Shown: positions 3,009 to 3,289 of the stretch, in pieces
Numbering within the stretch: the first letter of the stretch is position 1
Layout: the number at the start of each line of letters is the position of its first letter
Origin: the human T2T-CHM13v2.0 reference genome, Homo sapiens
Reading direction: 5' to 3' (one strand)
NCBI RefSeq assembly: GCF_009914755.1
Contig: NC_060940.1
Length of the DNA stretch: 64,000 nt
Made by a program: the position numbers and the translations under genes
The notes under the pieces: model-generated
What the model was told of the DNA's origin: nothing
Seen by the model: the letters and a program-made list of their open reading frames with translations, nothing else
Database searches by the model: none

Positions 3009-3169
3009 TTTATTTATTTTTTTTCTTTTCTTTTCTTTTTTTTTTTTTTTTTTTTTTTTTTGAGACGGAGTCTCGCTCTGTCGCCCAGGCTGGAGTGCAG
3101 TGGCGGGATCTCGGCTCACTGCAAGCTCCGCCTCCCGGGTTCACGCCATTCTCCTGCCTCAGCCTCCCA
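3009..3169 (-). mobile_element. 5'-truncated AluY-family (AluYa5-like) element at the duplication junction
   Basis: Poly-T then 108 bp of Alu right arm with GTGGCGGGATCTCGG and CCTCCCA, both matching recalled Ya5 diagnostics; ends abruptly at 3169. Confidence 0.8.
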
Positions 3170-3289
3170 GTACATGTCATTTTTAGTCTCTACTGGAGAG
3201 TTTGTTTCACTCTTCTTATATATTGCCCATTTGTGCTATTTCCAAGCTGTTGCTGATTCTAAGACTTTAAACTGGTTTGCAGACCTGTA

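What the first reader, a model, noticed from the sequence alone, without database searches (positions are those of the whole stretch)
3009..3180. Junction Alu looks like a fresh AluYa5: possible retrotransposition-driven duplication (giant target-site duplication)
Seen: both copies share the poly-T and first ~43 bp of Alu. The junction element then reads GGCGGGATCTCGGC...CCCGGG...ATTCTCC...CCTCCCA and stops after 108 bp, whereas the resident AluY at 9950 reads GGCACGATCTCCGC...CCCAGG...ATTGTCC...CCTCCCG. The junction piece keeps all its CpGs and matches the AluYa5 consensus as I recall it, including two diagnostic sites. Inference: an AluYa5 RNA was primed at the TTTT/GA of the old Alu tail and resolved ~6.8 kb upstream, making the duplication effectively a 6.8-kb TSD. 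The alternative is Alu-Alu NAHR with a pre-existing truncated intronic Alu. The ~10 substitutions between copies would need later gene conversion or an inter-haplotype event.
Basis: partly seen in the sequence, partly recalled or inferred. Interest (0 to 1): 0.8.

Follow-up and report, generated by a model that had tools for sequence, protein, structure and literature searches.

The report
Young Alu fragment joins CLEC18A duplication
The two copies of a 6.9-kb tandem duplication in the human lectin gene CLEC18A are joined by a piece of a young AluYa5 retrotransposon that is absent from the unduplicated copies, so the duplication was probably made during an Alu insertion; both the duplication and this kind of event are already in print.

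Summary
At window 3036-3169 a T26 run and 108 bp of antisense Alu join copy 1 to copy 2, which starts at 3170.

- **Junction Alu:** the first 43 bp equal the resident Alu at 9950. The last 65 bp differ from it at 6 sites.
- **Subfamily:** these 65 bp carry the Ya5 states at both informative positions (174 and 237). The exact 108-mer occurs 1577 times in this genome.
In copy 1, CLEC18C and three CLEC18B-like copies (5 of 5), unique non-Alu DNA precedes GTACATG.
- **New evidence:** the unit starts GTACATGTCATTTTT/AG, a 15-bp target-site-duplication-like stretch ending in an L1-endonuclease site (chance 2.3%).

I therefore favour reverse transcription primed there, with the tail side resolved by homology with the resident Alu 6.9 kb downstream (0.45).

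The event is not fresh. The copies differ by 23 substitutions, and the duplication is published (PMC11103991) in 7 of 94 pangenome assemblies. Alu-insertion-mediated germline duplications are a known class (PMC8219666). This is a new member of a known kind, of moderate interest.

The parts
1..3035 (+). 3' part of copy 1 (D1) of the duplicated CLEC18A unit. The unit starts at window -3714, outside the window. This part includes the old interrupted T-rich tail flank of the resident-type Alu (about 3009-3035).
   Evidence: identity about 1.0 at offset 6889 for window 701-3000. Copy 1 start found at C16:75760286.
3036..3061 (-). T26 run (poly-A tail on the minus strand) at the junction. The resident Alu has T25. 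The paralogs have T11-T17.
3062..3104 (-). First 43 bp of the Alu 3' end. Identical in the resident Alu and in the Ya5-type consensus, so its source is ambiguous. The crossover or template-switch interval is this stretch plus the T-run.
3105..3169 (-). 65-bp Ya5-type piece, 5'-truncated at about Alu position 174. It has 6 differences from the resident Alu and carries the Ya5 states at positions 237 and 174.
   Evidence: Diagnostic positions from PMC4607524.
3170..3184 (+). GTACATGTCATTTTT: a 15-bp target-site-duplication-like start of copy 2. The inferred L1-endonuclease nick lies between 3184 and 3185 (TTTTT/AG).
   Evidence: Chance of such a site 7-20 bp downstream of a random position is 2.3%. 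TSD median is 14 bp in PMC4607524.
3170..9949 (+). Copy 2 (D2) of the unit. It holds the 10 exons of LOC128966615 (about CLEC18A exons 3-12) plus 535 bp downstream of the last exon. It ends in the T25 run.
   Evidence: plus the hub annotation.
9950..10234 (-). Resident full-length older AluY-type element at the 3' end of the unit. It is present with the same private changes in CLEC18C and in the three CLEC18B-like copies.

Best explanation
The 6.9-kb tandem duplication arose in one event tied to retrotransposition of an AluYa5.

Proposed steps:
1. L1 ORF2p nicked the + strand at TTTTT/AG (window 3184|3185, or its equivalent before duplication). It cut the other strand 15 bp upstream, as in any canonical insertion.
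2. An AluYa5 RNA was reverse-transcribed. The reciprocal DNA end, which begins GTACATG, was joined to the cDNA at Alu position about 174. This gave the junction CCTCCCA|GTACATG.
3. The tail side was not sealed at the same site. It was resolved through homology (the last 43 bp of the Alu plus the T-rich tail) with the resident Alu 6.9 kb downstream on the sister chromatid or homologue, by template switch or break-induced copying. A less likely variant is joining of two ORF2p breaks.
4. The intervening 6.9 kb, about CLEC18A exons 3-12, was thereby copied.

The result is A-D-[old tail + 43 bp | 65 bp Ya5]-D-B.

Shown: the anatomy, the empty sites, the Ya5 identity and the endonuclease-type site. 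Inferred: the order of steps and that it was a single event.
For: 1. Empty site. In 5 of 5 other copies (copy 1, CLEC18C, three CLEC18B-like) unique DNA precedes GTACATG. GRCh38 has a single 6,869-bp unit (PMC11103991 passages).

2. The 65-bp piece differs from all 5 resident Alus at the same sites. No other Alu has the exact 65-mer in 102 kb around the site: 72 Alu hits in all, best other match 96.8% over 62 bases. The Ya-type string GGCGGGATCTC occurs only at the junction.

3. The exact 65-mer is found 2174 times and the 108-mer 1577 times in the genome. Set against more than 1.2 million Alus (PMC2041999, listing and abstract only), that is about 0.2% of genomic Alus. By contrast, Ya5 makes 48% of new insertions (PMC4607524). 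An RNA or cDNA source is therefore far likelier than a random genomic DNA donor.

4. In 30 of 30 sampled exact-match elements the sequence continues as Alu after CCTCCCA. In 27 of 30 the element carries the Ya5 state at position 145.

5. The start of copy 2 is a 15-bp stretch ending TTTTT followed by AG. Only 2.3% of + strand positions in the window have TTTT/A 7-20 bp downstream. Only 2 TTTTA occur in the whole 6.76-kb unit.
 - In my calibration on 30 Ya5-type elements, 29 gave TSDs of 7-18 bp and 7 of 29 ended in strict TTTT/A.
 - Published TSDs are 7-22 bp with median 14.

6. 5' truncations with starts up to position 193 are known: 45 of 322 insertions are truncated, and 6 of 322 start beyond position 100.

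7. [quoted passage not shown]
Against: - The endonuclease-site argument was noticed after looking at the sequence. Its likelihood ratio is only about 10 (24% against 2.3%).
- The left copy of the 15-bp TSD is not present anywhere in this haplotype, so canonical TPRT at this site is inferred from one junction only.
- There is 0 nt of microhomology at CCTCCCA|GTACATG (by inspection).
- T-run/GA at the old Alu tail is also an acceptable endonuclease site: /GA follows 4 of 29 calibration TSDs. The tail-primed model therefore meets its own motif test.
- The copies differ at 23 sites in a mosaic pattern. This neither proves nor excludes a sister-chromatid origin.
- Only one human haplotype (CHM13) could be examined.
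Confidence: 0.45

Rival explanations
1. ORF2p nicked the + strand at the end of the resident Alu's T-run (T25/GA) and that T-run primed the Ya5 cDNA. The cDNA end was then joined to a break or a replicated end 6.9 kb upstream, on the sister chromatid or by break-induced replication. The whole unit is in effect a 6.9-kb target-site duplication.
For: The geometry fits: the primer strand, the orientation of the new Alu and the duplicated segment lying 5' of the nick all agree (my derivation).

The class is documented for L1. [quoted passage not shown] An L1-bridged tandem duplication with the endonuclease motif at the poly-A side is described in PMC7058536.

/GA after a T-rich TSD end occurs in 4 of 29 calibration elements. 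Short, heavily truncated inserts are common in such aberrant events, for example a 34-bp L1 insert.
Against: It leaves TTTTT/AG exactly 15 bp inside the other breakpoint as a 2.3% coincidence.

The junction T-run (26) is only 1 longer than the resident one (25). Sampled Ya5 tails have a median of 24.5. This point is weak, because long T-runs are unstable and the last ~1150 bp of the two copies are identical, which suggests homogenisation.
Confidence: 0.22
2. Two steps. A 5'-truncated AluYa5 first inserted canonically at TTTTT/AG, with a 15-bp TSD, on some haplotype. Later, unequal crossover took place between it and the resident Alu of a homologue lacking the insertion. This is ordinary Alu-Alu NAHR, but with a young polymorphic partner.
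For: It has the same endonuclease-site and TSD signature as the best model. It predicts a chimeric Alu with the switch inside the 43-bp identical stretch or the tail. The 0.34% mosaic divergence between the copies fits an exchange between homologues.
Against: The insertion-only allele is seen nowhere in CHM13: 0 of 5 other copies.

The model needs three things together: a rare severe truncation in a canonical insertion (6 of 322 start beyond position 100), an NAHR event on only about 108 bp plus tail while the insertion was still polymorphic, and a homologue without the insertion.
Confidence: 0.1
3. No retrotransposition. Two variants are possible. In one, a replicative template switch (FoSTeS/MMBIR) ran from the resident Alu into a genomic Ya5 copy and then to the start of the unit. 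In the other, a plain non-homologous duplication junction inside the resident Alu was later gene-converted by a Ya5.
For: Chimeric Alus at rearrangement junctions and Alu-Alu gene conversion are well known (established knowledge; PMC8230782 seen in a search listing only). The 43-bp identity could seed a switch.
Against: - A random genomic Alu donor would have the exact 65-mer only about 0.2% of the time: 2174 copies against more than 1.2 million Alus.
- There is no Ya-type Alu within -38 to +61 kb.
- There is 0 nt of microhomology at the second switch.
- Conversion would have to reach the very last base of homology, position 108.
- The endonuclease-type site would again be a 2.3% coincidence.
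Confidence: 0.08

Closest known systems
CLEC18A segmental duplication in T2T-CHM13 (J Biomed Sci 2024;31:53, PMC11103991; passages read)
   Same: It is the same structural variant. A 6,869-bp GRCh38 segment is present as 6,883 and 6,887 bp in CHM13. It is found in 7 of 94 HPRC assemblies and 4 of 11 long-read data sets, and it duplicates the exons for part of the CAP domain, the EGF domains and the CTLD.
   Different: The main text of that paper contains 0 occurrences of 'Alu' or 'tandem'. The junction, its Ya5 fragment and any mechanism are not described there.
TE-insertion-mediated duplications in germline long-read genomes (xTea, PMC8219666; passages read)
   Same: A TE piece sits between two copies of the same reference segment. 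The paper reports 24 such duplications (18 Alu, 6 L1) in 20 individuals and attributes them to double-strand breaks made during transposition.
   Different: This locus may or may not be among them. Here the tail side merges with an older Alu to give a chimeric old/new Alu. The endonuclease-type site lies at the 5'-junction side.
L1-mediated small tandem duplications, or 'large TSDs' (bioRxiv 10.1101/2024.12.14.628481, passages; PMC7058536, passages; Gilbert et al. 2002 seen only as a reference entry)
   Same: Duplications of 1-10 kb carry a poly-A-tailed retro-insert at the junction. [quoted passage not shown]
   Different: Those cases are somatic, in cancer or cell culture, and involve L1. 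This one is germline, involves Alu and is a common human polymorphism. Homology with a resident Alu is probably involved.
Alu recombination-mediated rearrangement (ARMD-type NAHR; PMC2041999 listing and abstract only)
   Same: There is a chimeric Alu at the junction, with same-orientation Alu homology at the switch point.
   Different: The ancestral state lacks an Alu at one breakpoint (0 of 5 copies). The defining two-resident-Alu configuration is not met.
Chimeric elements and rearrangements formed during L1 retrotransposition in cultured cells (Gilbert 2002, Symer 2002, Gilbert 2005; content recalled, seen only as reference entries)
   Same: A new cDNA recombines with a resident element of the same family.
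   Different: As I recall, those events gave deletions. This would be the duplication counterpart, with Alu rather than L1.

Membership tests
AluYa5 (Ya lineage) | G to C at position 237 (fifth diagnostic change) | tested here: met
   The junction reads GGCGGGAT on the + strand. All 5 resident Alus read GGCACG. The diagnostic is stated in PMC4607524.
AluYa5 (Ya lineage) | C to T at position 174 (fourth diagnostic change) | tested here: met
   The terminal base of the fragment (A on the + strand) has the Ya5 state. 30 of 30 exact-match elements continue as Alu after it. Caveat: it is the last base before the breakpoint, so it could also be a non-templated base or a CpG transition.
AluYa5 (Ya lineage) | Diagnostic changes at positions 89, 96 and 145 | not testable with these tools
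   The fragment is truncated at about position 174. Indirect evidence: 27 of 30 sampled elements sharing the exact 108-mer carry the position-145 state, and 21 of 30 carry an exact recalled 20-nt motif covering positions 89 and 96. Ya4, Ya5a2 and Ya8 cannot be told apart from Ya5 on this fragment.
Canonical L1-mediated (TPRT) Alu insertion | Matching target-site duplications of 7-22 bp on both sides | tested here: not met
   Only the 5'-junction copy (GTACATGTCATTTTT) exists. The tail side abuts the flank of the old Alu, not a second copy of the 15-mer.
Canonical L1-mediated (TPRT) Alu insertion | Endonuclease site TTTT/A at the end of the TSD | tested here: met
   TTTTT/AG lies at 3180-3186, 15 bp from the junction. 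The chance is 2.3%.
Canonical L1-mediated (TPRT) Alu insertion | Poly-A tail of its own | tested here: inconclusive
   A T26 run is present but is continuous with the resident-type tail and flank. The resident run is T25.
TE-insertion-mediated tandem duplication ('large TSD') | A retro-element piece with a tail lies between two direct copies, with an empty site in unduplicated sequence | tested here: met
   GRCh38 has a single copy according to PMC11103991.
TE-insertion-mediated tandem duplication ('large TSD') | The insert is derived from RNA and not copied from nearby DNA | tested here: inconclusive
   The piece is an exact consensus of the most active subfamily, and there is no donor in 102 kb. 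Because it is consensus sequence, it cannot be traced to any source.
Alu-Alu NAHR between resident elements | Same-orientation Alus at both breakpoints before the event | tested here: not met
   0 of 5 unduplicated-type copies have an Alu at the unit start. The nearest upstream same-orientation Alu hit lies about 900 bp before it. Other human haplotypes were not testable.

The most novel reading that the evidence does not exclude
A single germline Alu retrotransposition attempt was caught half-way. Its canonical endonuclease break in CLEC18A intron 2 was repaired by copying from the resident Alu 6.9 kb downstream. This left a chimeric old/new Alu and duplicated about exons 3-12 of an innate-immunity lectin gene. 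The product then rose to about 7% of human haplotypes. It would be a natural, population-scale example of the duplication counterpart of retrotransposition-associated deletions, and its intermediates could be traced in pangenome data.
Probability: 0.4. Interest if true: 0.5.

Novelty: new member of a known kind. Interest (0 to 1): 0.38.

Why it matters
It gives a mechanism for a published, common exon-bearing duplication of CLEC18A whose junction has not been described in the texts I could search. It is also a clean germline Alu example of insertion-coupled duplication. The two competing geometries, a nick at the old tail or a nick at the unit start, make different predictions that can be checked in existing pangenome assemblies. 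It does not open a new category.

Tried and rejected

- The whole-genome DNA search with the 108-mer found nothing because common words are skipped. I replaced it with exact pattern scans.
A 30-kb request was granted, so the local-donor test covers only -38 to +61 kb.
I could not check whether this locus is among its 18 Alu-mediated duplications.

**Arguments I considered and dropped**
- T-run length (26 against 25) as evidence for inheritance from the resident Alu. Runs this long are unstable. The last ~1150 bp of the two copies are identical, which suggests recent homogenisation.
- CpG retention as an age argument. The counts are 8 against 8, and by my own rough estimate the expected decay is too slow.
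- Copy divergence as a clock. Of the differing sites, 7 are shared by copy 2 and CLEC18C, 3 by copy 1 and CLEC18C, 11 are unique to copy 1 and 4 are unique to copy 2, while 5 derived alleles are shared by both copies. This points to gene conversion or allelic exchange.
- Microhomology at the 5' junction. There is none in either register, by inspection.
- A paralogous resident Alu as donor. None of the 5 matches.

Full report
**What is there**

The window is chr16:75764001-75828000 of T2T-CHM13.

- At 3036-3061 there is a T26 run. At 3062-3169 there are 108 bases of the 3' end of an Alu lying on the minus strand. At 3170 the sequence GTACATGTCATTTTTAG begins.
- At 9925-9949 there is a T25 run, followed by a full-length Alu at 9950-10234.
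- The 60 bases left of the two T-runs are identical, and so are the first 43 Alu bases.
- The remaining 65 bases differ at 6 places (bases 44, 45, 52, 76, 90 and 108).
- The sequence repeats at an offset of 6889 over window 701-3000.

A search of the window's own assembly with 3170-3500 found six full copies on chromosome 16:
- Copy 1 at C16:75760286, which is window -3714.
- Copy 2, in the window.
- One copy at 75.99 Mb, which I take to be CLEC18C.
- Three copies on the minus strand at 80.23, 80.35 and 80.46 Mb, which I take to be CLEC18B-like.

In copy 1 and in all four paralogous copies, the bases before GTACATG are unique non-Alu sequence ending ...caagccagtctt. So 0 of 5 unduplicated-type sites carry a truncated Alu. 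The result that would have reduced this to ordinary NAHR between two resident Alus was not obtained, at least in this one human haplotype.

**The 65-bp piece is foreign to the locus**

The resident Alu at the end of the unit carries the same private changes in all five loci. The junction piece matches none of them. In the 72 kb first examined, the best other match to the 108-mer is the resident Alu itself, with 5 mismatches in 107 bases. In 102 kb (C16:75726001-75828000) there are 72 Alu hits, no other exact 65-mer, and the Ya-type string GGCGGGATCTC occurs only at the junction. A larger flank could not be fetched.

**Subfamily**

Passages of Konkel et al. 2015 (PMC4607524) list the five AluYa5 diagnostic changes at positions 89, 96, 145, 174 and 237. 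The fragment covers about 174 to the 3' end and has the Ya5 state at both 237 and 174. The latter is the very last base of the fragment.

- The exact 108-mer occurs 1577 times in the genome (799 + 778; reversed control 0).
- The exact 65-mer occurs 2174 times.
- I examined the first 30 listed loci of the 1577, all on chromosome 1. All 30 continue as Alu after CCTCCCA. 27 of 30 have the Ya5 state at position 145. 21 of 30 match a recalled 20-nt motif spanning positions 89 and 96.

The fragment aligns without gaps to the resident Alu, so it lacks the Yb8 3' duplication mentioned. Ya5 cannot be separated from Ya4, Ya5a2 or Ya8 on this fragment.

The source matters. About 0.2% of the more than 1.2 million genomic Alus carry this exact 65-mer, whereas 48% of new insertions are Ya5. 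This argues for an RNA or cDNA source and against DNA template switching or conversion from a random Alu.

**New evidence on the mechanism**

The first 15 bases of the duplicated unit, GTACATGTCATTTTT, end in a T run and are followed by AG. This is the form of the right-hand target-site duplication of a minus-strand Alu insertion, with the L1 endonuclease nick at TTTTT/AG.

- I calibrated this on the same 30 Ya5-type elements. 29 gave a TSD of 7-18 bp, and 7 of 29 ended in strict TTTT/A.
- Published TSDs are 7-22 bp with median 14.
- By chance, 2.3% of + strand positions in the window have TTTT/A 7-20 bp downstream, and the 6.76-kb unit has only two TTTTA.

The likelihood ratio is roughly 10 in favour of the break at the unit start having been made by ORF2p in the canonical way. 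I noticed the site after looking at the sequence, so I do not push the ratio further.

**Models**

All models must give A-D-[old tail + 43 bp | 65 bp Ya5]-D-B.

- **(a) Favoured, 0.45.** TPRT at TTTTT/AG made the 5' junction. The tail side was then resolved through homology with the resident Alu 6.9 kb downstream on the sister chromatid or homologue, copying the unit. [quoted passage not shown] Exchange between two ORF2p breaks is a variant.
The cDNA was primed at the old tail and the 6.9-kb unit is the TSD. The geometry is sound and the class is documented, but the 15-bp site becomes a coincidence.
- **(c) Two steps, 0.10.** A polymorphic truncated Ya5 insertion was followed by unequal crossover. 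This is penalised by the rarity of such deep truncation among canonical insertions (6 of 322 start beyond position 100) and by the absence of the insertion-only allele here.
- **(d) No retrotransposition, 0.08.**

The remainder is unassigned.

**Age and history**

- Over the whole unit the copies differ by 23 substitutions and 5 gap columns in 6726 aligned bases.
- Of the differing sites, 11 are unique to copy 1 and 4 to copy 2. Copy 2 shares 7 with CLEC18C and copy 1 shares 3. In addition, 5 derived alleles are shared by both copies only.
- The first 656 and last ~1150 bases of the unit are identical between the copies.
- This mosaic points to exchange with CLEC18C or between alleles, so it is no clock.

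**What is already in print**

The duplication itself is published as a 'novel segmental duplication' of CLEC18A, present in 7 of 94 HPRC assemblies and 4 of 11 long-read data sets (PMC11103991). That text never mentions Alu. A search for CLEC18A together with 'Alu insertion' found 0 papers. Germline TE-insertion-mediated duplications are a recognised class: 24 in 20 genomes, of which 18 involve Alu (PMC8219666). Its supplement could not be opened.

**Consequence for the gene**

This part is inference from the hub annotation. The unit holds about exons 3-12 and ends 535 bp past the last exon. Copy 1 therefore completes a normal gene, and copy 2 is a promoter-less partial copy, annotated as LOC128966615.

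**Verdict**

The retrotransposition-linked origin is supported, at about 0.75-0.8 over all variants. This is a new member of a known kind.

Noticed in passing
G000:C16:80232513-80232843, 80346915-80347245, 80461234-80461564 (loci L003, L002, L001; L011-L013): CHM13 holds three CLEC18B-like copies of the unit on the minus strand, about 114 kb apart. They differ from each other by only 2-8 substitutions in 6.7 kb. This looks like a recent ~114-kb segmental triplication.
   Followed up: partly
window 9925-9949 and 3036-3061; L010, L011-L013: The resident Alu's terminal T-run is 25-26 at both CLEC18A positions but 15 in CLEC18C and 11-17 in the CLEC18B-like copies. The long run may have come from the new Alu's tail and then spread by conversion, or it may be independent expansion.
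   Followed up: no
window 3826-8776 versus window -3058 to 1887: The differences between the copies form a mosaic. Copy 2 shares 7 alleles with CLEC18C, which fits RefSeq's 'CLEC18C-like' name. Both copies also share 5 derived alleles absent from CLEC18C and CLEC18B in CHM13. One of these is at window 8454, which I infer to be the D421N codon discussed in PMC11103991.
   Followed up: partly
window 124-622 and 8405-9415: The annotation maps the selected CLEC18A transcript to exons 9-10 in copy 1 and exons 11-12 in copy 2. The last two exons show no difference between the copies, so that choice looks arbitrary. The same mRNA can be made from copy 1 alone.
   Followed up: partly
window 2990-3012 and 3163-3184: The flank left of the old Alu tail (AGTCTGGCTGTCATTT...) and the unit start (AGTCTTGTACATGTCATTT...) share AGTCT and the 8-mer TGTCATTT. 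This could be chance, or it could be extra homology that helped pairing between a tailed insertion at the unit start and the resident Alu.
   Followed up: no
window 4163-4194 and the paralogous places: An AAAT repeat varies by whole units between copy 1, copy 2 and the paralogs. CLEC18C carries a 14-bp deletion at the place of window 4019-4032.
   Followed up: no
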